A DNA stretch of 64,000 bases from a virus. Shown here piece by piece: positions 40,371-60,958 of the stretch. The stretch is from positions 1 to 64,000 of IMG/VR virus record IMGVR_UViG_3300025030_001854; one strand, written 5' to 3'. Numbering within the stretch: position 1 is the first letter of the stretch; each line of letters begins with the position of its first letter. The position numbers were made by a program, and so were the translations under genes. The notes beneath the pieces were generated by a model. The model was not told where the DNA came from, made no database searches, and saw nothing but the letters and a program-made list of their open reading frames with translations.

Positions 40371-40462
40371 TGGCGGAAAACATCAGTCCTGCCCTGAACC
40401 CCTCTTGTTAGACGGGCCATCCCGTTTCCAGCGGGAGAAGCCACTTTGGCTTTTTATTTTCC
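40371..40462 (-). tRNA. tRNA-Ser(GGA)
   Basis: TCCCG CTGGAAA CGGGA, long variable arm, GCCA end. Confidence 0.75.
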
Positions 40463-40606
40463 ACATCTTCTCTTAAACGATTCTCTATATCATTATATGA
40501 AAAAACATCGCAATATCTAAGACCATGATAATCTCGATTTGCATTTTTTCCCAATTTAAAAACCACTGTTGGTCATACCAATTCATGTATTACTATTACA
40601 CTTTTT

Positions 40607-40691
40607 CGGCTGTTGAAGGGATTGCACCCTCGCGCCCAAAGGGACGGCTTCAGTTTTCGAGACTGACCTATTACTACTCTAGCAAACAGCC
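40607..40691 (-). tRNA. tRNA-Ser(CGA)
   Basis: TCAGT CTCGAAA ACTGA, long variable arm, no encoded CCA. Confidence 0.8.
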
Positions 40692-42176
40692 CTAACTGCT
40701 TTTCTTGGATTCGTGACAAGAACAGTCGCAACTCTTCTTAGAACACCAATTAAATTTCTTTTTTAGCCAAACTAAAAGTCCAGCACAAAAAATTGGAATT
40801 CCTATACAAAAAATTCCACCATCAATACAAGATATCATTATTTTTCCCCTTTAGAACATTTACCACATAAAAATTGTGAGCCATTCCACCATAATAACAA
40901 CAAAGGATAAATATCGTGACAACATTCGCATTCTTGCAAAAGGTCATAATTCCCTATATTGTCGTATCCATCCCACATATTATAGTTTATTAAATTAATT
41001 CCCTAAGATAACGTTTAATTTCAATACGAGCGGGTTTATTAGCTTTGGCATATTGCTTTTTAGAAGCTCTAATAGCAGTATGAAGCTTGTCTTCTGGAAG
41101 TTCTGAAGATTCTCGTAATGCTTTTCTAATGAGTTTTGCTGTTTTTGCGTTCATAAAAGTTTAACTATTTTTTATATATTTTTCTAATTCTTTATCGGGT
41201 AAATTTTTTCTCATTTCGACACATTGAGGATTTGAAGAAGAACATCTACCGCCAAATTTTAAGCATTCATAAAAATAAGAGCCTTTTAAATTCATTAATT
41301 CTTGTCTAGTAGATTTTGGGGCCAATTCTGGATATTTTTTAAACGATACAAATTTACCAAGCTCTAAATTTCCAACTTTTTTACATTCTACAAATTGAAT
41401 ACTATAACGTCTCATATTAAATTCCAGTAAAAGTGTCTTTTTTCTTTTTTTTAAACCACTCTTCTACTTCTAACCACAAAGCCACTACAATTAGTAGAAC
41501 TAATATAAAAAAATCTTTTATGGTTCTCATTGGAGCCCTAAGATGGTATCGCGCCATCGTCTCTTGAATACCAATCAAGAATAATGCTTTTATACTATTA
41601 GGGCATAAACAAAATATTTGAGCCCCGTCCCAGAATTGCACTGAGATTTCTTCCTTACGAGGGAAGCACATCTCTATTTATGTTTACGGGGCTTAGACCC
41701 ATTATAAAATGGGCGGGTTCTGGCCAAATTTAAGCGGTTACTAATTGAGAATTCTTATATTCTTCTCCGCACTTATCACAAACAACAACTGGTTGAAATC
41801 CAATTTCTTCTCGGCCCGTGCCACTCAATAGGGCCGAAACCTTACGAATTGTCAATACTTGTTTAAAGTATCCATGTCCACACTTACACATAACTTGTGT
41901 CGTTTGAGACATAGGAATACTGCGAGGACTTAGGTCTGATGCGTTCATATTTTTAATTTAAAAAGAAAATTCCGACTAAACAAAATAAAACACCAATACC
42001 TAAATAAGCAAATAGCTTACATAGCATTTTAAAGTTTTTGGCATTTGCTTGTTCTTCAACGTATAAATTATCCCAAGAGGTTTCTTCCTGTTTAAGGACA
42101 GGAGATTTAAGGTCAATTTCTTGATTTTCCATATAGGTTATATTAAATTAGAGTTGCTGGTTTGTCAAACAAAAAT

Positions 42177-42253
42177 TGGTGTTCGCGGTTGGATTTGCAC
42201 CAACCTAATCTATCTACGATTACTTTTTTAGGAAAAAAGGTCGATACGCGAAC
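42177..42253 (-). tRNA. Atypical D-armless tRNA-Arg(CCT)
   Basis: GTTCGCG/CGCGAAC-ACCA, loop TT CCT AA, T arm GTTGG TGCAAAT CCAAC. Confidence 0.6.
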
Positions 42254-42865
42254 AAAAAATTATAAATTAACATCCATAATTGCTATCTTCTGGAGGAATA
42301 ATTAATGGTTCCAGTTTAAGGGTTTTCTTAAGAAGGTTCTTCTTAATAAGGACGCTTAAAGCTTTTGCTCTTAGATTAAATTCTCTTTGAGATTCTTTTC
42401 TTTTCTGACCTGCAAATTTTTTTGTTTTTCTTTCTTTTTTATTAAATTGACCTTGATGACCAATTCTCCATTTATCTCCAAGAGATTCTAATGGTTCACG
42501 ACAAATAGGACATAACCCATAACCCTTACGGCTATATTTATGCTTTTCGCAAACGTAATTTAAGTTTCTATTTCCAAACATACAATTTCATTTAATTAAT
42601 TTATATTTACTCTTAAGAAAATCAATACGAGTGGAATATTTAGAACTCTCAATAATTGGATTTCCTTCTATCTTCAGAAAGATATAACGGACTTCTGTTC
42701 TATCTTTATTTATAGCAACAATTTTAATGAAGGTATCTCCCCAATCTTTGTCTACTAATTCGTCACCAACAGAAATATTGGGACAACAGGATTTAGAAAT
42801 AATACTCTTTCCGTTAACAACAAAATTCCAAAATCTAGTAAAAATATTATTCATAATATATAAAT

Positions 42866-42943
42866 TGGTAGGATAGGAGGGATTCGAACCCTCATTAGTC
42901 CATTATGCACACATTGTTTAGAAGACAAGGCCATTACTATCCC
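42866..42943 (-). tRNA. Atypical D-armless tRNA-Arg(TCT)
   Basis: GGGATAG/CTATCCT-ACCA, TTGT CTTCTAA ACAA, GGTTCGAATCC T arm. Confidence 0.7.
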
Positions 42944-43543
42944 ATTAAATTATTTAATTACTTTAAACTTTTATCGTCCTTTTCTGGGAGGATAAAAAAA
43001 TATAGAGCTTTTACAAACCTCACAGGTTTCTCTTGCGAAATCTCCATCTCTCTGGCATGACTCTATTTTCAGTTCCCGTTGAAAAGCTTCAAAACGAGAG
43101 AAACAATTAGGACAAGTACTAATCCAAATTTCTTCTGAAGGAGGATTGCCTCTAAAAACACATTTCATATTAAATTTTTTTCTCTATTTTCACCACCAAA
43201 AATTCTATATCTTTAGCAAAATGAAGAGTCTCCTGTTTATTTCTTCTCGCATCACGAATAGCTAATTTTTTATTTTTCCAGTTACTTGATTGAATATGCC
43301 AAGTAATAGGAAAATCTTCTCTGTTTCTCCAAAAAATTGTATAATTGATGGTAGATTTCATTTTAAATAATTCAGTTTTTTTTAATTTGATTTCGAGTTT
43401 TTAACACCCAGGCTGTCTCGACGATAGTATAACCATCTTGGTCACATACGCTATCCCATTCTCCAATAGATATAAGATAATCTTTCGCCTGTTGATAAGT
43501 TAGACCTTTTTCTTTTTCGAAGTCACTAATTTTCATTCAGAAA

Positions 43544-43619
43544 TGGAGTCCGCTATAGGAATCGCACCTATCAACCCTCGTTTTGCAGACGCGGTGTTTC
43601 ACTAGCCACACCAGCGGAC
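43544..43619 (-). tRNA. tRNA-Cys(GCA)
   Basis: Loop CTGCAAA, U73-CCA. Confidence 0.8.
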
Positions 43620-44080
43620 ATTTTTATTCTTCATTAAAAGTCTTATCTTGGCATTCCTGGCAAAGGCCCGAAATCCTCGCCTCCTTACGGCTTAGAGTAT
43701 CTCGAAAAGGCCCATAAGGCTTTCGGCAGATTGGACAGACTTCTTTCCCGATGCTTTCCTGCCTATTTACACCAAAAATTTGGGTCAAAAGTTTATCAAT
43801 TGCTGGATTTTTCTCTGTCGGTTTCATAATATTCTTTAAATTAATTAGTTATTTTATCCGCCAAAGTTCTAAGAGCACCAGAAAGAGCAATTAAATCTTG
43901 CTTACGAACAGTATTAAGACAGAACGTAGATGCTACTGTTGAATCAGTTCGTTGCGTGACATCAAAAACCAAACTATGATAACAAAAATTTTTCATCTTG
44001 TTCTTCTTAAGAGTAAGAAAGACTACTGAATTATAGCTATTAATTACTACAGATACAGATTGTCGTTTCATAATCTTACT

Positions 44081-44386
44081 TTACTCCTGTTTTGGCTGCT
44101 CGTCAAGCCATTTTGCAATCACATCACAATGACACGACACTTCTTTATCGGCACGTTTACAATAACAGCCTAATTTTTCATCTTTTAAAGTTAAAACTAA
44201 ATCATAAAACCTTTTATCTTTAAGACAAAAATTAAACCATTTAGCAAATTTATTAATAACTTCTTCTCTTGTCCCATCTCTACCGATTTCAAAAGGATTA
44301 CCAAATATAGAACCCCTTCCACAGTACTCATAAGGAGTTTCTGAATAAGCTCTTATATTAATTACTTTTGTCATATATATTTGCAA
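44081..44386 (-). CDS. DUF4326 family protein
   Basis: YCGRGSIFGNPF, LGCYC, CHCDVI. Confidence 0.8.
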   Translation of the reverse strand: MQIYMTKVINIRAYSETPYEYCGRGSIFGNPFEIGRDGTREEVINKFAKWFNFCLKDKRFYDLVLTLKDEKLGCYCKRADKEVSCHCDVIAKWLDEQPKQE

Positions 44387-44464
44387 ACGGGGAGATTTGC
44401 ACTCCCACGCTTTTTAAAGCCTAAGATTCTCGGTCTTAGATGTCTGCTCTTTCATCACGTTTGC
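44382..44464 (-). tRNA. tRNA-Leu(GAG)
   Basis: TAAGA CCGAGAA TCTTA with long variable arm. Confidence 0.75.
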
Positions 44465-44923
44465 TCTATTTCTTACTCCATAATTAGAGGTTTGAGCATG
44501 ACAATTACAGCATAAAAGTTGAATATTGAATAATCTATTATCCTTATTATCTCCATTGATATGATGTAATTCCAAAGGAATATATAATGTATTCCATTTA
44601 ACCCGACCACATTTTTCGCATTGATGTTTTTTTAAACCCTCTTGAATCAATCTTTTTTTTAAACAATGACTACTAATTTTTATGCAATCTTTTACAAGAA
44701 AATATTCAATGGGTTTTCTGGTTGGAGCCCTTTTACCTCTCCAGATAGCTTGACCCAAAAAATGAGGTGCTTTTATTAAAAACTCTTCGGCCCTTTCTTT
44801 TATTCTTAAATAATTATGACTGTCTGGATACAATCCCAATTTAATACATACACTTCTCCAAGATTCTGAATTTTGAATCACAATATTTAATGTTTGAAAA
44901 TCAATTTGTTTTATCTTACCCAT
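44414..44923 (-). mobile_element. HNH endonuclease overlapping tRNA-Leu(GAG)
   Basis: CEKC, LELHHING..DNR..N...LCCNCHAQT. Confidence 0.85.
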
Positions 44924-44980
44924 ACTGTCTAATAGTTACACGAAACAGTATGAATTGGGAATTTTCCCTATCTAAAAATT

Positions 44981-45071: not shown

Positions 45072-45072
45072 G

Positions 45073-45723: not shown

Positions 45724-45798
45724 TGGTAGTCCCGAACGGTCTTGCGCCGATACTTGCGAATTTTTGAAATTCGTGCCTCTGCTTTGGGCTACGGGACC
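45724..45798 (-). tRNA. tRNA-Leu(CAA), short variable arm
   Basis: CGAAT TTCAAAA ATTCG. Confidence 0.75.
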
Positions 45799-46451: not shown

Positions 46452-46528
46452 TGGTGAGATTAGAGGGCATTGCACCCTCGTTTACTGCTTGAGAAACAGT
46501 AGTCCTATTCTTCTTAGACGATAATCTC
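46452..46528 (-). tRNA. tRNA-Glu(CTC)
   Basis: ACTGT TTCTCAA GCAGT. Confidence 0.8.
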
Positions 46529-46908: not shown

Positions 46909-46979
46909 TGGTGGCAGGCTGGGGATTCGCACCCCACCGAATTCCTTATGAGAGAACTCTGGCCGCTAGACCGCTTGCC
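46909..46979 (-). tRNA. tRNA-Met or Ile2(CAT), short D arm
   Basis: GTTCT CTCATAA GGAAT. Confidence 0.7.
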
Positions 46980-47098: not shown

Positions 47099-47626
47099 AT
47101 GATTAATAATATGAAAAAATGTTCTAAATGTCAGCAATTAAAAAATAAATCTTTTTTTTGTAAAAATAAACGAGCAAAAGATGGACTTTTTTCCCACTGT
47201 AGAGACTGCCGAATAATTTATTATAAATCAATAACTACTATTAAAAAAGAAAAAATTAAAATTCGTCATAATATTCGAATGAACGAACGATTTGATAATC
47301 CAATAGAAGTAAGAAAAATTCGTTTAAAAACCTTATTAATTATATCAAGATATAGAGCTAAAAAAAGAAATTTACCATTCGATTTAGATAAAGACTGGCT
47401 AGATAAAAATACCCCCGATACTTGTCCAGCTTTAGGTATTCCTCTTATTTTTAATCCTAGATATGGAAACCATTCTTTTAATTGCCCATCAATAGATAGA
47501 ATAGATAACTCAAAAGGATATACTAAAGATAATTGTGTTGTTGTATCAAAAAAAGCTAATACTATTAAAAATATGTCTACTATATCCGAATTAAAAATGG
47601 TCGCTGATTTTTATTCCAAATTTTGA
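47099..47626 (+). mobile_element. HNH-like endonuclease
   Basis: KKCSKC, CRDC, CPALG, PSIDRIDNSKGYTKDNCVVVS..AN. Confidence 0.75.
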
Positions 47627-50163: not shown

Positions 50164-50238
50164 TGGTGGGTTGACGGGGAATCGCACCCCGTTCCGAGAC
50201 TTTAAGAGAGTCCGCTTCACTATCAAAGTTTTCAACCC
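50164..50238 (-). tRNA. tRNA-Lys(CTT)
   Basis: GGACT CTCTTAA AGTCT. Confidence 0.8.
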
Positions 50239-50991: not shown

Positions 50992-51065
50992 TGGTGGGAC
51001 TCCACGGTATCTCGCCGTGTTCTCAAGGTTAAAAGCCTTTTGCATCAATTTAATGCTTGAATCCC
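50992..51065 (-). tRNA. tRNA-Lys(TTT) copy 1
   Basis: AAGG CTTTTAA CCTT. Confidence 0.75.
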
Positions 51066-51112: not shown

Positions 51113-51580
51113 ATGAAAGAACAAATTCTTAAACTCAGAGCTGAAGGTAAATCTTACGACCAAATTGTTTCGTTACTTGGATGTTCTTCTGCTACTGTTT
51201 GGTATCATTGTAACCCAACCGCAAAAAAAGAACGAGCCCGCCTCAATAGATTAAAAGATAAACTTTGGCATAAAAAAATTAAAATTATTTTTGGTGGTAA
51301 ATGTCAATCTTGCGGTTATCATCGCTGTCTTTCCGCTTTAGATTTCCATCACTATAATAACGATAAAACATATTCGGTCATGAATATTATTCGTATTTCA
51401 AAAGGTAAAGCAATACAAGAAGCAATGAAATGTATTCTTCTTTGTTCTAATTGTCATCGAGAAGTTCATAATAAAATGTTAGATATTAGTCATTTAGTCC
51501 CAAACATTCCTACTCAAGGACTTGGGAAAAGCGGACGACCATCAAAACTTATAGTAATGGCTAAAACCTTCAACCCATAA
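51113..51580 (+). mobile_element. HTH-HNH endonuclease
   Basis: N-terminal HTH; CQSCG, LDFHH, LCSNCHREVH. Confidence 0.8.
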
Positions 51581-51815: not shown

Positions 51816-51889
51816 TGGTGGGCCTCCACGGTATCTCGCCGTGTTCAATTGGTTAAAAGCCAATTGCATCAATTTAATGCTTGAAGCCC
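51816..51889 (-). tRNA. tRNA-Lys(TTT) copy 2
   Basis: TTGG CTTTTAA CCAA; D and T arms match copy 1. Confidence 0.75.
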
Positions 51890-52155
51890 ATATATAACAG
51901 TATTTTCTTAAATTTTAAATTAAGAATTGTTCTAAATTGGAGCCGCAGTAGGATAACGCTTCCTATCATTAAATTTACAAAATTCAATACCCTCTTAGGG
52001 ACAGCGGCATTAAAAGGGTCATGAAACATGACCCAGTATTCTCTACGTCCAAGTCTTATCACGCATTTGTCCACGTTTCGAACCGTATCGTAACAGAGGA
52101 GAACATCGACTTGGTTATACTATCTCAAAAATTTGTGGACTTGTCAAACAAAAAA

Positions 52156-52232
52156 TGGTGCGCCGTGAGAATTCTGCCATCTCGTTATTTTTGCTTGGAA
52201 GGCAAATGCCATAGCTTCTAGGCGAACGACGC
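52156..52232 (-). tRNA. tRNA-Gly(TCC)
   Basis: TTTGC CTTCCAA GCAAA. Confidence 0.8.
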
Positions 52233-52251
52233 ATTAATTAATTTAAATTAG

Positions 52252-52323
52252 CTCCCTCTGATGGTAACGCTCCACCCTTTTCTGATTCAGAGTCAGTTGT
52301 AATAACTAATATACTAAGAGGGA
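52252..52323 (-). tRNA. tRNA-Gln(CTG)
   Basis: CTGA CTCTGAA TCAG, U1-A72, G73. Confidence 0.75.
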
Positions 52324-53198: not shown

Positions 53199-53272
53199 TG
53201 GTAGGCCGTACTTGTTACGCTCAAGTGAAAAAATCTCATCAGGATTCTATTTTACTATTAAATTAACGGCCC
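53199..53272 (-). tRNA. tRNA-Ile(GAT)
   Basis: GAATC CTGATGA GATTT. Confidence 0.75.
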
Positions 53273-53331: not shown

Positions 53332-53423
53332 TGGTAGCTCCATGCCGAATCTCACGGCCCAGCACCCCAGTCCGGGGATTATATTCGTTATAAGCGAACC
53401 CATGCAATTTACATCTTGGAGCC
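53332..53423 (-). tRNA. tRNA-Ile(TAT) with long variable arm
   Basis: GTTCG CTTATAA CGAAT, variable hairpin CCCC/GGGG. Confidence 0.7.
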
Positions 53424-53436: not shown

Positions 53437-53512
53437 TGGTCCCATTCCATCGTACTGCCCGATGACTTTCTGTGCTTCAAACAGACGTGCAGACTATCTA
53501 CACCAGAATGGG
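53437..53512 (-). tRNA. tRNA-Phe(GAA)
   Basis: TCTGT TTGAAGC ACAGA. Confidence 0.75.
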
Positions 53513-53514: not shown

Positions 53515-54099
53515 TTAAAAATGTTTTTGACTATGACAATTGGGACACAAATACATTAAATTGTTAATTAAATTATTTTTTTTATTTTCGTCTATGTGAT
53601 GAATTTGTAATTGAATTGGATTATTTTTCCAAGAATCAATACTACATTCAAAACATTTATAAGGAACATTATGAATATTCATATGCTTTTTAAGAGATTT
53701 TCTTGTTAATCTTTCCTGTCTAAGTATTGTTTTTTGATTTGTTAGTTGTGCGGTTTTTAAACCTCCGCGTTTTCTCCCATTATCACGACCAATAGAAACA
53801 TCAACATTTAACTTTAATAATCTTTTTTTATAATGATACCATGCTCCACCACTCATTCCGACGCCTAAATATAATAAAAATTGATTAATTGAATCACTCT
53901 CCCTCCAAACCTCTAACAACTTTTCATCCGAAAATTTAAAACGATTCTTTAAATATATATTTGGTTTCGTTTTTAAATTTAATTTTTTTAACCGATAACG
54001 TATTCCAGTTTCACTTAATCCCACATTGGAACTTAATTCTTTAATTGTTAAACCCTGGTCAATTAAATCTTCCAAAAACTTTCTTTCTAATATTTTCAT
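53515..54099 (-). mobile_element. HTH-HNH endonuclease
   Basis: CFEC, LQIHHID, N...NLMYLCPNCHSQ. Confidence 0.85.
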
Positions 54100-54166: not shown

Positions 54167-54240
54167 TGGTCGGTCATGTCGTAATCCCAACGACCCCTTA
54201 TGCTCCCAAAGCACATGTGCTTGTTCAACACTTATGACCG
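54167..54240 (-). tRNA. tRNA-Pro(TGG)
   Basis: C1-G72, TGTGC TTTGGGA GCATA. Confidence 0.75.
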
Positions 54241-54317: not shown

Positions 54318-54320
54318 AAT

Positions 54321-54449
54321 TTTTCAGAGAACAGACAACAACAGCTTTTTTAACGTGCTACTATTACACCAACGACTTTCGTCGCCTTGGATTTGCACCA
54401 AAACCTTTCGTTTGATAGACGATGAAACTGTTATTTACACTACTGAAAA
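54321..54449 (-). ncRNA. YrlA-like Y RNA (permuted tRNA-like domain)
   Basis: CAGTAGTG...TGTTCTCTG end stem; T arm TTGG TGCAAAT CCAA, closed acceptor CGAC GAAA GTCG, then D arm GGTGTAATAGTAGCAC. Confidence 0.75.
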
Positions 54450-54523
54450 TGGTGAACGTTGAGAGAATCGCACTCCCGTCTCGGATATGTCGCACCCGCG
54501 CTTTTCTTTTAAACTAAACGTCC
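54450..54523 (-). tRNA. tRNA-Val(GAC)
   Basis: CGGGT GCGACAT ATCCG. Confidence 0.75.
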
Positions 54524-55203: not shown

Positions 55204-55278
55204 TGGTGACGGTGACAGGAATTGCACCCGCACTTGTTGGTGTCTAAAACCAATGCCTCTGCGTTGGGCTACACCGCC
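55204..55278 (-). tRNA. tRNA-Leu(TAG), short variable arm
   Basis: TTGGT TTTAGAC ACCAA. Confidence 0.75.
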
Positions 55279-55369: not shown

Positions 55370-55452
55370 TGGTAGCCAAGACGGGACTTGCACCCGTAAA
55401 ATTACGAAATTTTAAGTTTCGTTGCTGTGCTGTTCGCATTAATCACTTGGCC
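55370..55452 (-). tRNA. tRNA-Leu(TAA), enlarged D loop
   Basis: CGAAA CTTAAAA TTTCG. Confidence 0.7.
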
Positions 55453-55933
55453 GTTTTTTATTTTTACTTTTATATGTAGATGTCTGCGCGTGACAATTTG
55501 GACATAAAATTTGTAGATTCTCTAAACGATTATCTGTTTTTATTCCATTAATATGATGCAATTCTAAGGGAATTTTCTGATTTTGCCACTCTCTTATTTG
55601 ACATATTTCACATTCATACTTTTTTAATTTTCTATCAAAAAGTCTATTTTTTAAATTATGAGAGGTTGTTTTAGATGGACAATTATCGGTTAACCAATAT
55701 TCAATTGGTTTCCAATTAGATGTTTGTTTCCCTCTTAATAATTTATTGTAAGACCGACCAACCCAATGAGAAACATCAAAATTATATTTTTGAACAATTT
55801 TAACAATTATTTTAAATTGACTAGAAGATTTCCCTGTCTGACCTAGTGATAACAATACCATTTTTATTGTAATATTATTTTTATCATTTATAGCTTTTAC
55901 AGCTTCTTCGTCAGTAAATTTTCTAGCACTCAT
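55439..55933 (-). mobile_element. HNH endonuclease overlapping tRNA-Leu(TAA)
   Basis: CEIC, LELHHING..DNRLENLQILCPNCHAQT. Confidence 0.85.
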
Positions 55934-55974
55934 ATATGTATAGATATACACACGTCTATGCTTATAGAGAAATA

Positions 55975-56081
55975 TTAATAGAACAAGCAATAAGAACGGC
56001 ACAATGCCAGTTTTCCCAATTACTAATTTGGCGGGAAAATTCGATTATGAGTCGAAGTATTTCTTATTTATCACTAATTAA
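55975..56081 (-). ncRNA. Y RNA-like
   Basis: TAGTGATA...TACTTC GACTCATAATC...TTTTCCC/GGGAAAA...TGTTCT. Confidence 0.6.
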
Positions 56082-56083
56082 AT

Positions 56084-56158
56084 CGGGCGAACAACGAGGT
56101 TTGCACTCGCATAATCTTGATTCACAATCAAGGACATTAACGTTATGCTATATTCGCC
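56084..56158 (-). tRNA. tRNA-His(GTG)
   Basis: G-1:C73, CTTGA TTGTGAA TCAAG. Confidence 0.8.
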
Positions 56159-56164
56159 ATAAAA

Positions 56165-56293
56165 TGGTAGCCTGCCAGGAATCGAACCTAGTTTTAAATT
56201 ACTTTATCAACGTAGGCTTACTATAGATATCTTACATCTCAATTTCATTATTGTTGGTTATCTGACTTCCACAGAATACCCTCGTATCAGGCC
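56165..56293 (-). ncRNA. 129-nt tRNA-like RNA
   Basis: GGCCTG/CAGGCT-ACCA, T arm CTAGG TTCGATT CCTGG, no recognisable anticodon arm. Confidence 0.6.
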
Positions 56294-56463
56294 ATAAAAT
56301 TAAAAAGCGGGCTTGCTCTCCAGCTTGCCCGCTGGGGGTGTAGGCTAATGGTTTAGCTTATTCCCTCCACCACTTATACAATTTCACAACATTTCGACCA
56401 CCGTCCGAAAATTCTCCCCTTCAATGAAGTCGGCTAGTAGTTGTGCTGGGTTTGCAGGTATAA

Positions 56464-56539
56464 TGGCCCTCTATGCGAGACTCGCACTCGCTACATATCT
56501 TAGACAGAGATATATGATAAACTCATTCAACAATAGAGG
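56464..56539 (-). tRNA. tRNA-Asp(GTC)
   Basis: TATCT CTGTCTA AGATA, G73. Confidence 0.75.
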
Positions 56540-56615
56540 ATGTGCCTTGTTTTATTTTTATGAGAGCAATGGACATTCTTTATTACCCATCCTGACAAGG
56601 CGGAACTCTCGGGTA

Positions 56616-56692
56616 TGGCGAACATAGAGGGACTCGCACCCACAATCTTTGCCTTCGCAGGGCAATGCTTTATCTAATTTAGCTATATGTTC
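56616..56692 (-). tRNA. tRNA-Arg(GCG)
   Basis: TTGCC CTGCGAA GGCAA. Confidence 0.8.
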
Positions 56693-56697
56693 AAATT

Positions 56698-56886: not shown

Positions 56887-56887
56887 A

Positions 56888-56971
56888 TGGTAGACACGGA
56901 AAGATTTGCACTTTCATTTTCAATTTCTAATTACCATTACTAATTTCGAAGATTAGCTGGATTACGTGTCC
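56888..56971 (-). tRNA. Atypical D-armless tRNA-Arg(TCG)
   Basis: GGACACG/CGTGTCT-ACCA, CTAAT CTTCGAA ATTAG. Confidence 0.65.
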
Positions 56972-57696
56972 AATTTCTTTTTTTGTTTATTAACATGGGA
57001 AAATGGAGAAATATTTTTCCAATCTAAATTGTAATATTTGGCCCATTTTCTTATTGTATTGTCGGAACCCACTCCAATTAATTTTTTAATTTGTAAAATA
57101 TTTTTTGTTTTTAAAAGACTCTCCAATTCTTCTTTAGATGGACGGATAAATTTTCTATTACTAATCTTAGGAGAATGTCGCCAATTAGGATTTAATTGAG
57201 ATGGTTTTATTTTATATTTTTTATGTCTCTTTCCAGCAAATGAAGGTGTTTGGCTGTGACAGTTTGGGCAAAGAAAAGCTAAATTTTCCAAACGATTATC
57301 ATTAGATACTCCGTTCTTATGTTCTAATTGAAGACTTAATTTATTTCCTTGCCACTCTCCAAAATTTCCGCATTTTTCACATTTATAATCTAGTAATTGA
57401 AATTTAATAAGATTAGTTTTAATGTGTCGTCTATTTTGTATAGAATTTTCTTCTAATTTCCGTAAAAAATCATCTTTAGTATTTTTTCTTGTCAAGTTAG
57501 AAGAATTTACTCTCGATAAAAAATGTTTTGTATCTAATCCTAAAAATTCAATTCTCTTCCAACAGGTTTGATAATTAGACCCTTTATTTTCCATTCCAAA
57601 AAATCTTAAAACTTGAGACATACTAATGCTATTTTTAATAAGCTCAATAAAAGCATTATCTTCCATTTGCCAAACCACGCTTGTTCTTTTTCTCAT
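56962..57696 (-). mobile_element. HNH endonuclease overlapping tRNA-Arg(TCG)
   Basis: CEKC, LQLEHKNG..DNRLENLAFLCPNCHSQT. Confidence 0.85.
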
Positions 57697-57747
57697 ATCA
57701 TATATTACACAAAATAACGTAAGAAGTCTAATAATAGTGCAAAATAC

Positions 57748-57821
57748 TGGCTCCCCTCCCACCACTTGCAGATGGACTTACGCTTTCAAAGAGCGGTTTG
57801 CTACTCTTACAACAGAGGGGA
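57748..57821 (-). tRNA. tRNA-Gln(TTG)
   Basis: CGCT CTTTGAA AGCG. Confidence 0.7.
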
Positions 57822-57903
57822 ATTTCGCCAGAGCTTCGGATTAAACCGCATTTTTAATTGAGCCTCACTGTTCTGGCTAAGTGAGAATATACTTAATGAT
57901 AGT

Positions 57904-57979
57904 TGGTGGACACAGATGGGAATCGCACCCACTAAATCTTCATTGCGAATGAAGTGCATCGCTATTTTGCTTCTGGCCC
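57904..57979 (-). tRNA. tRNA-Ala(CGC)
   Basis: CTTCA TTCGCAA TGAAG, G3:U70. Confidence 0.75.
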
Positions 57980-57991
57980 ATTCTGTCTTTT

Positions 57992-58262
57992 GTTTAATAG
58001 GTATTAGGATTTCCAGCGTCACCTAAGTTTTTAACAACCTTTTCGCGGGGTATGCAACCAAGCCCGATTTGAGCCTCGTCTCAGCTAAGGATTTGCACCT
58101 TTTTATTATACCCATTTACCTTTATGGATGATACGCTCACGTAACTATGTTAGTAATGATGTCTAACTTCATCCGATACCACGATTTAGACCTATGGCAA
58201 ACCTCTTTAATAATTAATTAAATCAATGCCGACATCTAAACAGCAGTTCACACCTATTAAAC
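57992..58262 (-). ncRNA. Orphan structured RNA, about 270 nt
   Basis: 11-bp closing helix GTTTAATAGGT/ACCTATTAAAC, internal AAGG TGCAAAT CCTT T-loop hairpin. Confidence 0.55.
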
Positions 58263-58314
58263 GGATTCACCCCCAAAGGGTTTGGTTTTGCTTAATCACT
58301 AATAATACTAAGAC

Positions 58315-58394
58315 TGGTGGACCACGGCGGTAACACTCCGCTTTTTTTAACTTGCTTGCAAAGCAAGTTCAACATTTTTGTTGCCACGTAGCCC
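58315..58394 (-). tRNA. tRNA-Ala(TGC), atypical
   Basis: CTTGC TTTGCAA GCAAG, G3:U70. Confidence 0.65.
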
Positions 58395-58454
58395 AAGGAG
58401 GCGCGTATCGTTAACGCCGACGCCTGATTGAATACAGGAGGTCTTGTGAACCCA

Positions 58455-58544
58455 TGGCGGAAGCAGGGGGAGTCGCACCCACACCGGCTTTCACCGGCTT
58501 AGTTTAGCAAACTAATTCGACAAACTGATATTCGACTTACTTCC
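58455..58544 (-). tRNA. tRNA-Ser(GCT)
   Basis: TTAGT TTGCTAA ACTAA, long variable arm. Confidence 0.8.
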
Positions 58545-58668
58545 AAAGCCCGTTTGGTGAGCAACCCCCTATGCAAATCTTCATCCATAAACAAGTTGCA
58601 TAGCGCATACATTTATGAATCTCGCTCATTTCTAACGAGCATATCTAATAAATTAAATATCGAATTAA

Positions 58669-58754
58669 TGGCGGAAGCTAAGAGAATCGCACTCATAAGC
58701 CCTTGCGGACCAACAGTTTTCAAGACTGTGCCCTCGTCTATTCGGACAGCTTCC
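58669..58754 (-). tRNA. tRNA-Ser(TGA)
   Basis: ACAGT CTTGAAA ACTGT, long variable arm. Confidence 0.8.
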
Positions 58755-58842
58755 AAATCCCGATATTTAGTTTTCGGGCAAACAACATCAACTCTGTCTG
58801 ATGTCTGGCGATATTACATAACGGTAATATTCGTTGTTAACA

Positions 58843-58932
58843 TGGTGGGCGCGGCAGGAATTGCACCTGCGATGTTTACCCGATGGGATGAATTTTACAG
58901 ATTCACGTCTTCGCTACTCAAACCACACGCCC
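58843..58932 (-). tRNA. tRNA-Tyr(GTA)
   Basis: TGAAT CTGTAAA ATTCA, long variable region. Confidence 0.8.
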
Positions 58933-58936
58933 AATA

Positions 58937-59067
58937 TTGTGAGAACAAACGAAAAAAGCTTTTTTCTGTGCTACCGCTACACTAAGACGGCATTTTGAGC
59001 CGTCTGCAAGACTTGAACTTGCCCTAGTCTTTACAATAAGATGAAACTCTTTTCTGACGCTACACAA
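58937..59067 (-). ncRNA. YrlA-like Y RNA (permuted tRNA-like domain)
   Basis: TGTGTAGCG...TGTTCTCACA end stem; T arm GCAAG TTCAAGT CTTGC, closed acceptor AGACGGC/GCCGTCT, D arm TAGTGTAGCGGTAGCAC. Confidence 0.8.
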
Positions 59068-59068
59068 A

Positions 59069-59139
59069 TGGCAAGAAGTGTGAGACTCGCACTCACCAAG
59101 ACAAGTTTTGGAGACTCGTCACCGCCTTGCGGACTTCCT
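59069..59139 (-). tRNA. tRNA-Trp(CCA)
   Basis: CGAGT CTCCAAA ACTTG, G73. Confidence 0.75.
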
Positions 59140-59144
59140 ATTAA

Positions 59145-59211
59145 TTGAGAGAACAAATAATTTCAGCGTTGTTTCATTAGACGTGAAGTAACTGAAATAG
59201 ACACTACTCAA
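59145..59211 (-). ncRNA. Short Y RNA-like
   Basis: TGAGTAGTG...TACTTC...TGTTCTCTCA. Confidence 0.65.
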
Positions 59212-59215
59212 ATAT

Positions 59216-59292
59216 TTGCGGAAAATCAGGAGTCGAACCTGTTATCTCTAACCTTATGAGGGTTGAATGGTATTCCGTTCCACTCTTCCGCA
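59216..59292 (-). tRNA. tRNA-Met(CAT), initiator-like
   Basis: TGCGG...CCGCAA ends, loop CTCATAA, canonical TTCGA. Confidence 0.75.
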
Positions 59293-59367
59293 TGGCTCTC
59301 GGGGCTTGATTCGCACAAGCATATCGCGCTTTAACAGAACGCTTCACTACTTTTGTGATACCCGAGA
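59293..59367 (-). tRNA. tRNA-Asn(GTT)
   Basis: Loop CTGTTAA, U1-A72, G73. Confidence 0.8.
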
Positions 59368-59378
59368 ATTATAAAACA

Positions 59379-59658
59379 TTTTAATACTAAATACATAAGA
59401 AGTTTTTATGGTCATTTCAACCACTTTGATAGGTAAAACCACCATTCGTTATCTCTGAATTACATAATATAGAGGCAATTCTCAGAATGGCCATACGTTT
59501 AATGGACCGAAAGTTTAAGGTTACCGCCCACATAGTCCTGCTCTGACCGAGAAATGTCAGCTTGATTGGCAAAAGGAAATCCCAAATATGCTTTACACAC
59601 CCAAAATATCCTACACAATGCTTATGTCTTGTAACATGTAACTGCATTAGTATTAAAA
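59379..59658 (-). ncRNA. Orphan structured RNA, about 280 nt
   Basis: 12-bp closing helix TTTTAATACTAA/TTAGTATTAAAA and inner ACATAAG/CTTATGT. Confidence 0.5.
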
Positions 59659-59659
59659 T

Positions 59660-59769
59660 TGGCACCTGTCGGGGTCTTTCTCCCCAATCACCACATTGAT
59701 ATCGGCAATAATTAGCACACAATCTCTAATTATCAAAAGTATCGAATATCGTGGCACTTGTGTTCAGGT
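59660..59769 (-). ncRNA. 110-nt tRNA-like RNA with elongated anticodon arm
   Basis: ACCTG/CAGGT-GCCA, T arm GGGG AGAAAGA CCCC, long CCAC..ATAATTAG/CTAATTAT..GTGG stem. Confidence 0.5.
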
Positions 59770-59774
59770 ATAAA

Positions 59775-59851
59775 TGGTAGTGGTAGACGGAGTTGCACCG
59801 ACATTTTACTCGCTGAAAACGAGGAGTCCTAGACTATTAGACGATACCACC
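59775..59851 (-). tRNA. tRNA-Glu(TTC)
   Basis: CTCG TTTTCAG CGAG. Confidence 0.75.
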
Positions 59852-59979
59852 ATAAAATTGAATACTTGTAACAACATGCATTACAAGTATTTAGAAGAAA
59901 TGTTAGACCCTTCTTGGGAAGCCTAACTTAGTGGTAATTCTTCATACCGTTCTATAACTATTGCAATAATTATAGAAAA

Positions 59980-60462
59980 TTATTTAATAATTGGACTCGT
60001 TTTTATATGTTGTAATAAAGAAAGGATTTGTTCTTTTCTATATCCATTTTTTCCTAAATTAACAAAAATACAAACAAATTCGACATTTCCCTCAACATAT
60101 CCCTTTGAAGAATCTATTCTATCTAGAGAAGCTTTTGCTGGATTATGAGTAGAAAATCTTCCTTTGTCTAAATGCATATTAATACCTAAATATGGGCAAA
60201 TTCCCATTTGAATATCCCAAATAGATTTAAGATAACTTACGGTTAAATTAAAATCTAACTGTTTTAGTTTTGCATTTTTCTTTGCTGTGCTTACATAGAC
60301 TCTAAAAGGAGAAAATTCATCTTCTTCACTTGCCTGACAAGATAAAGAACAAAAAAATCTATCTTTTTTTCTCCCTCTAGAAAGCTGACGAGTATACTCT
60401 CGTTTCTCCTTTTCAAAGGATATTCCACATTTAAAACAAATCAATTGTAATACTTCTCTCAT
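59980..60462 (-). mobile_element. HNH-like endonuclease
   Basis: CFKC, FCSLSC, CPYLG, ASLDRIDSSKGYVEGNVEFVC..VN. Confidence 0.75.
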
Positions 60463-60502
60463 ATAAGTATTTACACTATCCGGTGGAGCTTGAGAAACAA
60501 AA

Positions 60503-60577
60503 TGGTGGAGATAGATGGTTATGCTCCATCTATTAGACTATGCCATAGTCTTGTGATACTGATTTCACCATATCCCC
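60503..60577 (-). tRNA. tRNA-Ala(GGC)
   Basis: AGACT ATGGCAT AGTCT, G3:U70. Confidence 0.8.
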
Positions 60578-60884
60578 AGAAGGGCACTTAACGTCGAATG
60601 AGGAATTCTAGTTAAATGCCACCGACAAAAAAAAGAAAATTAGGAGGGAATATCTTATTACCCCCAAGCACTCTTTCTTTTAGATTATTCGGTCAGATAG
60701 GACCGTCGTCCCAAAATTGCGCTGTTATGGAATATAAAATCGCAACTACATTTAATATTTCGGTTGGCCGACCTAATAAAAAAATTACCTTATCTAAAAG
60801 ATTTCATGGCAGCCCAGCTTCATTTTTCATGAGTCGAGCACGTTACAAGTAACAGTACTTGTTTTTCTGTCACTAATCTTCTTA

Positions 60885-60958
60885 TGGAGCAGTATGTCGG
60901 TAACGCTCCGACTTGTTTTGATTGGCAATCAAACGCATTACTTTTGTGCTAATACTGC
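60885..60958 (-). tRNA. tRNA-Gly(GCC)
   Basis: TTTGA TTGCCAA TCAAA, U73. Confidence 0.8.

What the first reader, a model, noticed from the sequence alone, without database searches (positions are those of the whole stretch)
40371..60958. Array-wide rewiring of the tRNA elbow: G55 with A18
Seen: by my reading 36 of 38 tRNAs have G instead of U at position 55 (T loops TGCRA, AGCRT, GGCAG, CGAGA, TGGGA). Most D loops read AG rather than GG. The two with canonical TTCGA (Met 59216, Arg-TCT 42866) keep GG. The two YrlA-like RNAs covary likewise (TGC with AG at 54321; TTC with GG at 58937). Established: G18-psi55 is near universal and psi55 is made by TruB. Inference: selected independence from host modification, or evasion of elbow-recognising nucleases or sensors.
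Basis: partly seen in the sequence, partly recalled or inferred. Interest (0 to 1): 0.7.

Follow-up and report, generated by a model that had tools for sequence, protein, structure and literature searches.

The report
Phage tRNA set with rewired elbow
An uncultured large phage carries about 41 tRNA genes, and 39 of them replace the near-universal corner contact of tRNA (G18 with U55) by a matched A18 with G55, a second way of locking the tRNA fold that could make these tRNAs invisible to enzymes that read U55.

Summary
The window (first 64 kb of a 137-kb IMG/VR phage record) holds 41 tRNA(-like) genes, all on the minus strand at 40371-60958. Of these, 39 have G at T-loop position 55; 2 keep TTCGA.

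A18 accompanies G55 in 31 of the 34 G55 tRNAs whose D loop can be numbered. The 19:56 pair stays Watson-Crick while its identity changes (G:C, U:A, A:U, C:G). Positions 54/58 also co-vary (U-A, C-A, A-U, G-G).

The set covers all 20 amino acids and reads 57 of 61 sense codons. Most genes encode CCA.

The trait is shared by relatives with 61-63% DnaE identity: G55 in 67 of 75 tRNAs, against T55 in 40 of 41 tRNAs of two other phages. It also occurs, mixed with canonical tRNAs, in unrelated IMG/VR phages. Candidate host-type genomes are canonical.

The design matches the generic YGNRA T-loop with an intercalating adenosine known from riboswitches.

The purpose is inferred. My best guess is escape from U54/U55-dependent factors such as T-loop Schlafen nucleases.

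I found no paper describing this. Earlier notes of this scan report the same swap on other DNA. Standard finders miss about 70% of these genes.

The parts
60885..60958 (-). tRNA-Gly(GCC); T loop AGCGTTA, D loop AAAAGTA, CCA encoded
60503..60577 (-). tRNA-Ala(GGC); T loop AGCATAA, D loop AATCAGTA
59775..59851 (-). tRNA-Glu(TTC); T loop TGCAACT, D loop AATAGTCTA
59293..59367 (-). tRNA-Asn(GTT); T loop TGCGAAT, D loop AAAAGTA
59217..59291 (-). tRNA-Met(CAT), canonical: T loop TTCGACT, D loop AACGGAATA (GG), no encoded CCA
59069..59139 (-). tRNA-Trp(CCA); T loop TGCGAGT; D region very short, not assignable
58843..58932 (-). tRNA-Tyr(GTA), long variable arm; T loop TGCAATT, D loop GAGTAGCGA
58669..58754 (-). 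tRNA-Ser(TGA); T loop TGCGATT
58455..58544 (-). tRNA-Ser(GCT); T loop TGCGACT
58315..58394 (-). tRNA-Ala(TGC), extended anticodon stem; T loop AGTGTTA (T56) with D loop ACAAAAA (A19)
57904..57979 (-). tRNA-Ala(CGC), imperfect acceptor stem; T loop TGCGATT, D loop AATAGCG
57748..57821 (-). tRNA-Gln(TTG); T loop TGCAAGT, D loop AAGAGTA
56888..56971 (-). tRNA-like gene, anticodon not assignable; T loop TGCAAAT, CCA encoded
56616..56692 (-). tRNA-Arg(GCG); T loop TGCGAGT, D loop AATTAGATA
56464..56539 (-). tRNA-Asp(GTC); T loop TGCGAGT, D loop ATGAGTTTA
56083..56157 (-). tRNA-His(GTG); T loop TGCAAAC, D loop AACGTTA (C18 G19), no CCA
55370..55452 (-). tRNA-Leu(TAA), enlarged D region; T loop TGCAAGT
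55204..55278 (-). tRNA-Leu(TAG) with a 5-nt variable loop; T loop TGCAATT, D loop AACGCAG (C18 G19)
54450..54523 (-). tRNA-Val(GAC); T loop TGCGATT, D loop AAAAGAA
54244..54317 (-). tRNA-Val(TAC); T loop AGAGTTA (A56) with D loop AAAATTA (T19)
54167..54240 (-). tRNA-Pro(TGG); T loop TGGGATT (G56) with D loop TGAACAA (C19); A8/T14
53437..53512 (-). tRNA-Phe(GAA); T loop GGCAGTA, D loop AGATAGTCT
53332..53423 (-). tRNA-Ile(TAT), 92 nt with long extra arm; T loop TGAGATT (A56), D loop (T)AAATTG (T19)
53199..53272 (-). tRNA-Ile(GAT); T loop AGCGTAA, D loop AATAGTA
52249..52323 (-). tRNA-Gln(CTG); T loop AGCGTTA, D loop ATTAGTTA, no CCA
52156..52232 (-). tRNA-Gly(TCC); T loop GGCAGAA, D loop AGAAGCTA
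51938..52008 (-). tRNA-Thr(TGT); T loop AGCGTTA; very short D loop
51816..51889 (-). tRNA-Lys(TTT) copy a; T loop CGAGATA (A56), D loop TAAATTG (T19); A8/T14
50992..51065 (-). tRNA-Lys(TTT) copy b; T loop CGAGATA, D loop TAAATTG
50164..50238 (-). tRNA-Lys(CTT); T loop TGCGATT, D loop TGATAGT
46909..46979 (-). tRNA-Met/Ile2/fMet(CAT); T loop TGCGAAT but D loop AGCGGCC (GG): the one clear exception to 18/55 covariation
46452..46528 (-). tRNA-Glu(CTC); T loop TGCAATG, D loop AAGAAGAATA
45724..45798 (-). tRNA-Leu(CAA) with a 5-nt variable loop; T loop CGCAAGA, D loop AAAGCAG
44381..44464 (-). tRNA-Leu(GAG), long variable arm; T loop TGCAAAT, D loop AAGAGCAG, no CCA
43544..43619 (-). tRNA-Cys(GCA); T loop TGCGATT, D loop GCTAGTGA
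42866..42943 (-). tRNA-Arg(TCT), canonical T loop TTCGAAT; Rfam aligns it with the D arm deleted and a 16-nt insertion in the variable region
42177..42253 (-). tRNA-Arg(CCT)-like, no D arm, extra arm with loop GTAGATA; T loop TGCAAAT
41618..41692 (-). tRNA-Thr(CGT); T loop TGCAATT, D loop AAATAGAG, no CCA
41531..41604 (-). tRNA-Thr(GGT); T loop CGCGATA, D loop AAAAGCA
40604..40691 (-). tRNA-Ser(CGA); T loop TGCAATC, D loop AGTAGTA, no CCA
40371..40462 (-). tRNA-Ser(GGA); T loop GGCAGGA; weak model score (E=5.5) but a full cloverleaf with GCCA tail
58933..59068 (-). Paralogous tRNA-like RNA: T arm with loop TTCAAGT, D-arm-like hairpin with loop AGCGGTA (GG)
59140..59216 (-). Third copy of the outer frame of these elements, without the tRNA-like insert

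Best explanation
These are working phage tRNAs, a near-complete private decoding set. Their elbow is built on the generic T-loop design instead of the tRNA-specific one.

Proposed structure:
- G at T-loop position 2 (tRNA position 55).
- Adenosine 18 from the D loop intercalating between 57 and 58 and bonding to G55.
- A 19:56 Watson-Crick pair of any identity capping the stack.
- A 54/58 pair that may be U-A, C-A, A-U or G-G.

Shown here: the sequence pattern, its covariation, its conservation across a deep phage clade, and its absence from three candidate host-type genomes.

Inferred structure: the L-shape is kept. RNase P, synthetases, EF-Tu and the ribosome read shape and stack on the 19:56 face, so they should still accept these tRNAs.

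Inferred purpose, my most likely reading: removing U55, and U54 in 14 of 39, makes the set blind to host factors that need the U54-U55-C56 motif. These include T-loop-cutting defence nucleases of the Schlafen type as well as TruB and TrmA. Phage translation could then continue on its own tRNAs when the host tRNA pool is attacked.

I put about 0.85 on 'functional tRNAs with an alternative, co-evolved elbow' and about 0.4 on nuclease or sensor evasion as the selective reason. The confidence given is for the whole statement.
For: Cloverleaves and completeness:
- 41 genes in one co-oriented array; 39 of 41 have G55.
- All 20 amino acids are covered. 57 of 61 sense codons are read, which is 97.5% of 31,170 ORF codons.
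- CCA is encoded in 34 of 41.

Covariation:
- In the clade, G55 goes with A18 in 62 of 67 tRNAs and T55 goes with GG in 3 of 4.
- 19:56 is Watson-Crick in 73 of 75; 0 of 2000 shuffles reach that.
- When 56 is A, G or T, position 19 is T, C or A.
- Lys tRNAs of two relatives differ by a double change: T19:A56 versus A19:T56.
- In four unrelated phage arrays that mix both types, T55 goes with GG in 27 of 27 and G55 with GG in 5 of 41 (p = 3e-14).

Conservation:
- G55 in 67 of 75 tRNAs across six records whose DnaE is 61-63% identical or that share a 52%-identical protein.

Structural precedent (passages read, bioRxiv 10.1101/2022.12.26.521914):
- Riboswitch T-loops have the consensus YGNRA.
- Adenosine is used almost exclusively as the intercalator.
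- That adenosine makes two hydrogen bonds to the sugar edge of the G at position 2.
- A GGAAG T-loop exists in rRNA.

Cost of single changes:
- In yeast SUP4oc no single mutation is tolerated at G18-U55, G19-C56 or U54-A58 (passages, PMC4117946).

Function of one natural G55/A18 tRNA:
- The only Ile-GAT tRNA that my scan finds in the Nostoc PCC 7120 trn operon has T loop GGCAGTA and D loop AAAAGTG.
- The operonic tRNAIle-GAU was detected and aminoacylated in vivo (passages, PMC8421152).

Nuclease rationale:
- CbCash cuts 5' of U55, and U54 or U55 substitutions abolish cleavage.
- The paper calls the targeting of phage tRNAs an open question (passages, PMC13462974).

Context:
- RNA ligase, RlaP-type nucleotidyltransferase and macro-domain genes lie in the same window.
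Against: - No experiment on these tRNAs exists. No RNA run holds the locus.
- The host is unknown, so neither a host T-loop nuclease nor canonical host tRNAs are demonstrated for the true host.
- 25 of 39 G55 tRNAs keep T54.
- Other phage arrays mix G55 and canonical tRNAs in one genome (8 of 16 and 5 of 23). A studied bacterial array has 1 G55 tRNA among 18. If evasion were the only driver, such mixtures would be odd.
- Earlier scan notes (unchecked) report the same swap in chromosomal tRNAs of some bacteria, where phage-defence evasion is not an obvious motive.
- Several members are structurally aberrant and may be decaying: two Arg genes without a D arm, the poor acceptor stem of Ala-CGC, and the unassignable 56888 gene.
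- The Schlafen domain is common in the presumptive host family (54 of 61 genomes), but the function of those proteins is unknown.
Confidence: 0.45

Rival explanations
1. Self-sufficient folding. The G55/A18 elbow is selected because it folds stably straight after transcription, without pseudouridine 55, m5U54 or Gm18. Phage tRNAs made in bulk late in infection would then not depend on, or queue for, host modification enzymes.
For: - G55 cannot be pseudouridylated, and 14 of 39 G55 tRNAs also lack U54.
- In a riboswitch screen, YGNRA T-loops with an intercalating A were the best performers and tRNA-type UUCRA loops were classed as weaker (passages).
- D loops are A-rich: 49% A against 33% in the outgroup phages.
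- This reading fits mixed arrays and bacterial spare-tRNA arrays as well as it fits phages.
Against: - T54 is retained in 25 of 39.
- Unmodified canonical tRNAs are generally functional in vitro (general knowledge, not tested here).
- It does not explain why the clade drives the trait to about 90-95% while other phage arrays stay canonical (40 of 41).
Confidence: 0.25
2. Neutral alternative carried by descent. A18/G55 is simply a second workable elbow that arose in a lineage of mobile tRNA arrays spread by homing endonucleases. It persists because reversion needs two coordinated changes, not because it helps this phage.
For: - HNH endonuclease genes are interspersed in the array, as in known arrays (passages, PMC8421152).
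- The same loop types recur in unrelated phages and in the Nostoc array.
- Single changes are deleterious in yeast, so either state is a trap.
Against: - Independent loop classes (UGNRA, CGNRA, AGNRU, GGNAG) and changing 19:56 identities show continued evolution under constraint.
- G55 is kept in 67 of 75 tRNAs over deep divergence.
- Canonical tRNAs do enter these arrays (2 of 41 here) yet do not spread.
Confidence: 0.15
3. Phage-made host shut-off with self-immunity. The phage itself destroys or disables canonical host tRNAs through the U54-U55 motif and translates with its own G55 set.
For: - The decoding set is near-complete.
- Many ORFs have no known function.
Against: - No nuclease of a tRNA-targeting family was recognised among 142 ORFs in Pfam, 58 in PHROGs or 81 in PADLOC.
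- Two canonical tRNAs and one canonical tRNA-like RNA are kept in the array.
Confidence: 0.07
4. Host-like pattern. The phage merely copies a peculiarity of its host's own tRNAs.
For: - The host is unidentified.
- The DNA comes from groundwater-type metagenomes.
- Earlier unchecked scan notes report some A18/G55 tRNAs in candidate-phyla-radiation bacteria.
Against: - A Flavobacterium MAG, the best match of a phage sugar gene and consistent with the lack of Shine-Dalgarno sites, has T55 in 26 of 29 scanner calls. Its one G55 gene sits on a 1.8-kb contig beside CCA-encoding tRNAs and was found in 1 of 61 genomes of the family.
- Two Saccharibacteria genomes have T55 in 31 of 31 and 16 of 17.
- Mixed arrays show that both elbow types work in one cell.
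Confidence: 0.05
5. Not translation tRNAs. The genes make decoys or tRNA mimics for another purpose.
For: - Two or three clearly non-decoding tRNA-like RNAs lie in the same array.
- Some members are aberrant.
- Staphylococcal cell-wall tRNAGly species lack G18, G19, U55 and C56 and work off the ribosome (passages, PMC4574755).
Against: - Anticodons cover all 20 amino acids with normal 7-nt loops and U33 in nearly all.
- Acceptor stems and CCA are intact.
Confidence: 0.03

Closest known systems
Large tRNA gene arrays of phages and mobile elements (L-arrays), e.g. the trn operon of Nostoc/Anabaena PCC 7120 on pCC7120delta (PMC8421152, passages read)
   Same: - Dozens of co-oriented tRNA genes, with HNH homing endonuclease genes in or beside the array.
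- Class-I-sized Leu-type tRNAs are present.
- The tRNAs are extra to the housekeeping set.
- In Nostoc, 23 of 26 were detected and charged in vivo.
- One Nostoc member (Ile-GAT) has the same GGCAGTA / A18 design.
   Different: - In the Nostoc operon 17 of 18 scanner-called tRNAs are canonical; here 39 of 41 are G55.
- The paper's main text never mentions T-loop, U55 or G18 (0 occurrences). Its supplements were not read.
- This array is in a lytic-type large phage, not on a plasmid.
Generic T-loop motif (YGNRA) with intercalating adenosine, as in FMN and cobalamin riboswitches and rRNA (bioRxiv 10.1101/2022.12.26.521914, passages read)
   Same: - G at loop position 2, purine at 4, A at 5.
- U or C at position 1.
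- An adenosine from the partner loop intercalates and bonds to the G.
- A G...G variant exists in rRNA (GGAAG), compared with GGCAG here.
   Different: - Those are riboswitch or rRNA tertiary contacts, not tRNAs. The paper states that tRNA T-loops differ by having U at position 2.
- The AGNRU class (A54/U58, 7 of 39 here) is not in that consensus.
- The geometry in these tRNAs is inferred, not solved.
Phage tRNAs that escape tRNA-targeting defence by changes in the anticodon loop (Azam et al. 2024, seen only as a title in the reference list of PMC13462974; details recalled)
   Same: Phage-encoded tRNAs that differ from host tRNAs at the nucleotides a defence nuclease needs.
   Different: - The change here is in the elbow (T loop plus a compensating D-loop change), not the anticodon loop.
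- It is set-wide.
- Resistance is untested.
Non-proteinogenic tRNAGly of Staphylococcus (PMC4574755, passages read)
   Same: Natural bacterial tRNAs that lack G18, G19, U55 and C56.
   Different: - Only three glycine isoacceptors are involved, and they are used for cell-wall synthesis.
- They have U18U19 or C18U19, not a compensating A18.
- Here all 20 amino acids are represented and the covariation preserves the contact.
Mitochondrial tRNAs with degenerate D/T loops (PMC2777451, abstract only)
   Same: Departure from the conserved elbow nucleotides.
   Different: Mitochondrial elbows are reduced or lost under AT pressure. Here loop sizes, the 19:56 pair and the stems are kept, and the replacement is a defined, co-varying pair.

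Membership tests
tRNA (Rfam RF00005 / canonical cloverleaf) | Cloverleaf: 7-bp acceptor stem, 5-bp T stem with 7-nt loop, 5-bp anticodon stem with 7-nt loop and U33, D arm | tested here: met
   About 30 genes pass a strict pair-count scan (at least 19 of 21 pairs). 40 hits at E<0.1 with model R1. At least 5 members have an aberrant or missing D arm.
tRNA (Rfam RF00005 / canonical cloverleaf) | Score above Rfam's gathering cut-off (29 bits) | tested here: inconclusive
   12 of 41 in the window-wide run, 16 of 41 with laxer filters, 18. The rest fall below, largely because of the T and D loops.
tRNA (Rfam RF00005 / canonical cloverleaf) | U54-U55-C56-R57-A58 T loop with G18-G19 in the D loop | tested here: not met
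   G55 in 39 of 41. A18 in 31 of the 34 G55 tRNAs that can be assigned.
tRNA (Rfam RF00005 / canonical cloverleaf) | Aminoacylation and use on the ribosome | not testable with these tools
   No RNA data. The only indirect evidence is that the one G55/A18 tRNA of the Nostoc trn operon (Ile-GAU) is charged in vivo.
Generic T-loop motif (YGNRA plus intercalating A) | Five-nucleotide loop core Y-G-N-R-A | tested here: met
   29 of 39 G55 loops fit (25 with T54, 4 with C54, all with R57 and A58). 7 are A-G-N-R-T and 3 are G-G-C-A-G.
Generic T-loop motif (YGNRA plus intercalating A) | Adenosine from the partner element intercalates between positions 4 and 5 and bonds to G2 | not testable with these tools
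   Only sequence covariation is available: A18 with G55 in 62 of 67, GG with T55. No 3D model was made.
Phage/mobile long tRNA arrays (L-array type) | At least 20 co-oriented tRNA genes at high density | tested here: met
   41 genes in 20.6 kb, all on the minus strand.
Phage/mobile long tRNA arrays (L-array type) | Linked HNH homing endonuclease genes | tested here: met
   HNH or endonuclease VII-type ORFs at 44417-44923, 47099-47623, 51113-51577, 53518-54099, 55442-56002, 56965-57765 and 59983-60462.
YrlA / bacterial Y RNA | Match to a curated Y-RNA-type family; Ro (TROVE) protein gene nearby | tested here: not met
   No Rfam match on 54318-54449 or 58933-59068 at E<=10. No TROVE domain among 142 ORFs at E<=1e-5. 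The module order (T arm, then a D-arm-like hairpin, inside a long stem) resembles YrlA only from my recollection.
Defence-evading phage tRNAs | Demonstrated resistance to a host tRNA nuclease | not testable with these tools
   The only support is the published U54/U55 dependence of one T-loop nuclease.

The most novel reading that the evidence does not exclude
A whole clade of roughly 200-kb groundwater phages translates with a private, near-complete tRNA pool whose elbow has been re-engineered. The changes are A18 with G55, swappable 54/58 and 8/14 pairs, and a free 19:56 identity. The pool would escape every host factor that reads the universal U54-U55-C56 signature. It would therefore survive wholesale destruction of canonical tRNAs by T-loop nucleases such as prokaryotic Schlafens. 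This would be the elbow counterpart of anticodon-loop evasion, and a natural proof that U55 is dispensable for all 20 decoding systems.
Probability: 0.3. Interest if true: 0.85.

Novelty: new variant of a known kind. Interest (0 to 1): 0.72.

Why it matters
- **Conservation.** U55 (pseudouridine 55) paired with G18 is treated as one of the most conserved features of tRNA. A natural set of 39 tRNAs for all 20 amino acids built without it shows that the feature is a choice among workable designs, not a necessity.
- **Natural mutagenesis.** The arrays provide a ready-made experiment on tertiary pairs 18/55, 19/56, 54/58 and 8/14.
- **Testable question.** A 2026 paper left open whether phage tRNAs are targeted by T-loop-cutting defence nucleases. 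These tRNAs and their revertants are the obvious substrates to test.
- **Annotation.** Default ARAGORN and Rfam each found 12 of 41 genes. tRNA counts of uncultured phages, and codon-usage or host inferences built on them, are therefore biased.
- **Engineering.** Such elbows could also serve as scaffolds for orthogonal tRNAs.

Tried and rejected
- **Close relatives among cultured phages and plasmids.** Megablast of 21 kb against phages found no match. blastn of 7.9 kb against phages hit only HNH genes, in 58 records. The same query against plasmids found no match.
- **Host from prophage or bacterial contigs.** DnaE in genome contigs returned 0 relatives. G009, classed 'provirus', has uniform 34-37% GC over 60 kb with no visible host flank and was not pursued.
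- **R1 bit score as a discriminator of G55 tRNAs in bacterial genomes.** Rejected, because canonical tRNAs also reach 55-60 bits.
- **Expression.** No RNA holder is listed for the locus.
- **Phage-encoded tRNA nuclease.** None was recognised. This is not evidence of absence.
- **'YrlA-like' label.** No Rfam or TROVE support.
- **Mis-parses.** The automatic parse of several odd genes was wrong (Met 59217, Leu-GAG, Ala-TGC, the two Arg genes, 56888). I corrected these by hand.
- **Literature.** Six searches found no paper on G55/A18 phage tRNAs. Subscription journals are not covered.

Full report
**What the DNA is.** The window is the first 64 kb of a 136,838-bp linear IMG/VR virus record, estimated about 71% complete and about 34% GC. 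Its genes are those of a large lytic-type phage: RIIA/RIIB, a split DnaE-type polymerase, ribonucleotide reductase, thymidylate synthase, a sigma factor, RNA ligase, RlaP-type nucleotidyltransferases and many HNH endonucleases. It has no near relative among 50,697 GenBank phage records.

**Checking the observation.**
- Default tools see only part of the array. ARAGORN finds 12 tRNAs, Rfam at gathering finds 12, and more sensitive Rfam runs find 16 and 18.
- A loop-agnostic cloverleaf scan of the whole record found about 30 clean cloverleaves with NCCA tails. All were on the minus strand between 40.6 and 61.0 kb, and their T loops read NGNRNNN rather than TTCRANN.
- I built a covariance model from 24 of them and ran it unfiltered over both strands of the window. 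It gave 40 hits at E<0.1, all minus strand at 40604-60958. Of these, 24 match by construction and 16 are new.
- Ser-GGA at 40371-40462 scores only E=5.5 but folds as a cloverleaf with a GCCA tail.
- I parsed them automatically and corrected six mis-parsed odd members by hand.
- Result: 39 of 41 have G at position 55.
  - T54 loops: 25 (TGCRA 23, TGGGA 1, TGAGA 1)
  - A54 loops: 7 (AGNRT)
  - C54 loops: 4
  - G54 loops: 3 (GGCAG)
- Only Met-CAT 59217-59291 and Arg-TCT 42866-42943 keep TTCGA.

**The partner in the D loop.** Of the 39 G55 genes:
- 31 read A at the position before the base that pairs with 56
- 2 read C (His, Leu-TAG)
- 1 has GG (Met-CAT 46909)
- 5 have D regions I cannot number

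The most telling cases are the six genes whose position 56 is not C:
- A56 goes with a D loop ending ATTN (Lys-TTT twice, Val-TAC, Ile-TAT).
- G56 goes with ACAA (Pro).
- T56 goes with AAAA (Ala-TGC).

In every one of these the base before is A. So 19:56 stays Watson-Crick while its identity changes, and A18 is constant.

Positions 54 and 58 co-vary as well (T-A, C-A, A-T, G-G). In some tRNAs 8/14 is swapped to A-T.

**Is it more than this genome?**
- A 334-aa protein inside the array and the DnaE polymerase retrieved relatives from IMG/VR.
- Records G001, G004, G006, G007 and G008 carry the same kind of tRNAs. Their DnaE is 61-63% identical to ours, or, for G001, a 52%-identical array protein is shared.
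- Two high-GC phages that share only the 334-aa protein (G002, G003) have ordinary tRNAs.
- With one uniform scan, G55 is found in 67 of 75 clade tRNAs against T55 in 40 of 41 outgroup tRNAs.
- With G55 the 18-19 dinucleotide is AG 55, AT 4, AC 2, AA 1. With T55 it is GG in 3 of 4.
- 19:56 is Watson-Crick in 73 of 75. The shuffle mean is 59.9, and 0 of 2000 shuffles reach the observed value.
- A Lys tRNA differs between two relatives by a double change: T19:A56 versus A19:T56.
- Five of those records lack our DnaE, so they are other phage lineages.
- Four of these records hold arrays that mix both elbow types: 8 of 16, 17 of 18, 11 of 14 and 5 of 23 tRNAs have G55.
- Within those mixed arrays T55 goes with GG in 27 of 27 and G55 goes with GG in 5 of 41 (p = 3e-14).
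- This within-genome contrast is the cleanest covariation test. It also shows that both designs work in one cell.

**Host.** The host is not identified.
- Upstream regions show no Shine-Dalgarno enrichment (13 of 131 against 9% background).
- The best bacterial match of a phage sugar gene is a Flavobacterium MAG at 53%.
- The DNA is held by groundwater and soil metagenome runs.
- That MAG has T55 in 26 of 29 scanner calls and GG in 25 of 29. Its single G55 tRNA lies on a 1.8-kb contig beside CCA-encoding tRNAs and was found in 1 of 61 genomes of the family. It is probably a binned phage fragment.
- Two Saccharibacteria genomes have T55 in 31 of 31 and 16 of 17.

**What it is.** The pattern is that of the generic T-loop motif. 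In passages of bioRxiv 10.1101/2022.12.26.521914:
- Riboswitch T-loops have the consensus YGNRA.
- Biology uses adenosine almost exclusively as the base that intercalates between loop positions 4 and 5.
- That adenosine makes two hydrogen bonds to the sugar edge of the G at position 2.
- tRNA is singled out as different because it has U at position 2.
- An rRNA loop GGAAG is mentioned.

The phage tRNAs therefore seem to have exchanged the tRNA-specific solution (U55 with G18) for the general one (G55 with A18). Some use further variants (GGCAG, and AGNRU, which is outside that consensus).

Single changes at these pairs are not tolerated in a yeast suppressor tRNA (passages of PMC4117946). That explains the strict covariation.

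[quoted passage not shown] This is compatible with a free 19:56 identity.

**Do they work?**
- The set covers all 20 amino acids. By standard wobble it reads 57 of 61 sense codons, or 97.5% of 31,170 codons in ORFs of 150 aa or more.
- 34 of 41 genes encode CCA.
- A lead from earlier notes of this scan took me to long bacterial tRNA arrays. In the Nostoc PCC 7120 trn operon I find 17 of 18 scanner-called tRNAs canonical and one, Ile-GAT, with GGCAGTA and AAAAGTG.
- Passages of PMC8421152 report that 23 of 26 operonic tRNAs are detected and aminoacylated in vivo. This includes operonic tRNAIle-GAU, with aberrant gel migration.
- That is indirect evidence that such an elbow is processed and charged.
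- The paper's main text has no occurrence of T-loop, U55 or G18. I did not read its supplements.

**Why?** This part is inference.
- Passages of PMC13462974 describe a CRISPR-associated bacterial Schlafen nuclease that cuts tRNAs 5' of U55 at the UUC motif.
- Single U54 or U55 substitutions abolish that cleavage.
- The authors call the fate of phage tRNAs an open question.
- A near-complete tRNA set without U55, in a phage that also carries RNA-repair-type genes, fits an arms race over tRNA integrity.
- The Schlafen domain is found in 54 of 61 genomes of the presumptive host family, against 5 of 14 control genomes. This is circumstantial only.

The main rival is that the G55/A18 elbow folds well without modification. 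A second rival is that it is a neutral alternative locked in by the need for double changes. The mixed arrays and the bacterial example argue that evasion cannot be the whole story. I found no phage-encoded tRNA nuclease.

**The tRNA-like RNAs.**
- Elements at 54318-54449 and 58933-59068 are paralogues with a shared outer stem.
- Their inner T-arm and D-arm-like hairpins differ exactly as the tRNAs do: TGCAAAT with AATAGTA, versus TTCAAGT with AGCGGTA.
- This supports the covariation independently.
- Their identification as YrlA is not supported by Rfam or by a Ro gene.

**Novelty.**
- Six literature searches found no description of G55/A18 tRNAs in phages. Subscription journals are not covered.
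- Earlier notes of this scan report the same swap in other phages, in long bacterial arrays and in some candidate-phyla-radiation bacteria. I treat those as leads.
- I checked one of them: the Nostoc operon, where 1 of 18 tRNAs is G55.
- I could not reproduce the bacterial claim in the two Saccharibacteria genomes I looked at.
- I class the finding as a new variant of a known kind. The known kind is phage and mobile tRNA arrays. The new variant is an apparently undescribed, co-evolved elbow that here reaches 95% of the set.

Noticed in passing
window 42177-42253 and 42866-42943 (minus strand): Two Arg tRNAs (CCT, TCT) have no D arm; Rfam aligns 4 nt where the model has 15. Instead they carry a long extra arm after the anticodon arm whose loop looks like a D loop: GTAGATA with the TGC T loop, AATGGACTA with the TTC T loop. 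The extra arm may stand in for the D arm.
   Followed up: partly
window 55204-55278 and 45724-45798 (minus strand); also L037, L038, L276: Leu-anticodon tRNAs (TAG, CAA) have only a 5-nt variable loop and a Leu/Tyr-type D arm. Similar short Leu-type tRNAs occur in the two outgroup phages and in the Nostoc trn operon.
   Followed up: no
window 56158-56463 (minus strand): A 306-nt gene-free stretch between tRNA-His and tRNA-Asp ends in a canonical T arm (loop TTCGATT), an acceptor strand and ACCA, and pairs with a 5' strand about 135 nt upstream. It could be a tRNA with a large insertion or another tRNA-like RNA. There is no Rfam match.
   Followed up: no
window 44417-44923, 47099-47623(+), 51113-51577(+), 53518-54099, 55442-56002, 56965-57765, 59983-60462: Seven HNH or endonuclease VII-type homing endonuclease genes are interspersed among the tRNA genes. 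Four belong to one PHROG family (phrog_10822).
   Followed up: partly
window 7530-8438, 28648-29394, 33564-34166, 35236-35757, 39357-39914 (minus strand): An RNA-repair-like gene set: RNA ligase, an RlaP-type and a second pol-beta-type nucleotidyltransferase, a macro domain (DarG-like) and a phosphoesterase. Beside them lie a glutamine amidotransferase and a phiEco32-type COOH-NH2 ligase.
   Followed up: no
window-wide and G000: There is no Shine-Dalgarno signal upstream of ORFs (13 of 131 against 9% background); upstream regions are A-rich. This suggests a host that does not rely on SD, for example Bacteroidota.
   Followed up: partly
window 53332-53423 (minus strand): tRNA-Ile(TAT) is 92 nt long with a long, stem-forming variable arm. 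This is unusual for an Ile tRNA.
   Followed up: no
window 51816-51889, 50992-51065, 54167-54240, 50164-50238; relatives L035, L046: The 8/14 tertiary pair is swapped to A8/T14 in Lys and Pro tRNAs. In the clade: T-A 54, A-T 6, A-A 8; Fisher p = 1.6e-4.
   Followed up: partly
G010:C35 (L117 1-320); G073:C437 and C466 (L260, L261): Bacterial MAGs contain short or palindromic contigs that are CCA-encoding tRNA arrays of phage type. A few members have G55 (Tyr-GTA TGCAAGT; Lys-TTT AGCGTTA). These are probably binned phage fragments.
   Followed up: partly
L045 (G004) 8736-8808, 9721-9794, 11069-11143, 11691-11763: A further T-loop class in a relative (CAGTCAA, GTGCCAG, TCCCCAA, TCGTCAA) has neither U55 nor G55. 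Its D loops are 9-11 nt long.
   Followed up: no
window 24634-25869 and 27537-28433: The thymidylate synthase homologue is 412 aa, with the 266-position profile stretched over the whole length, so it carries large insertions. A LAGLIDADG endonuclease gene lies nearby on the other strand.
   Followed up: no
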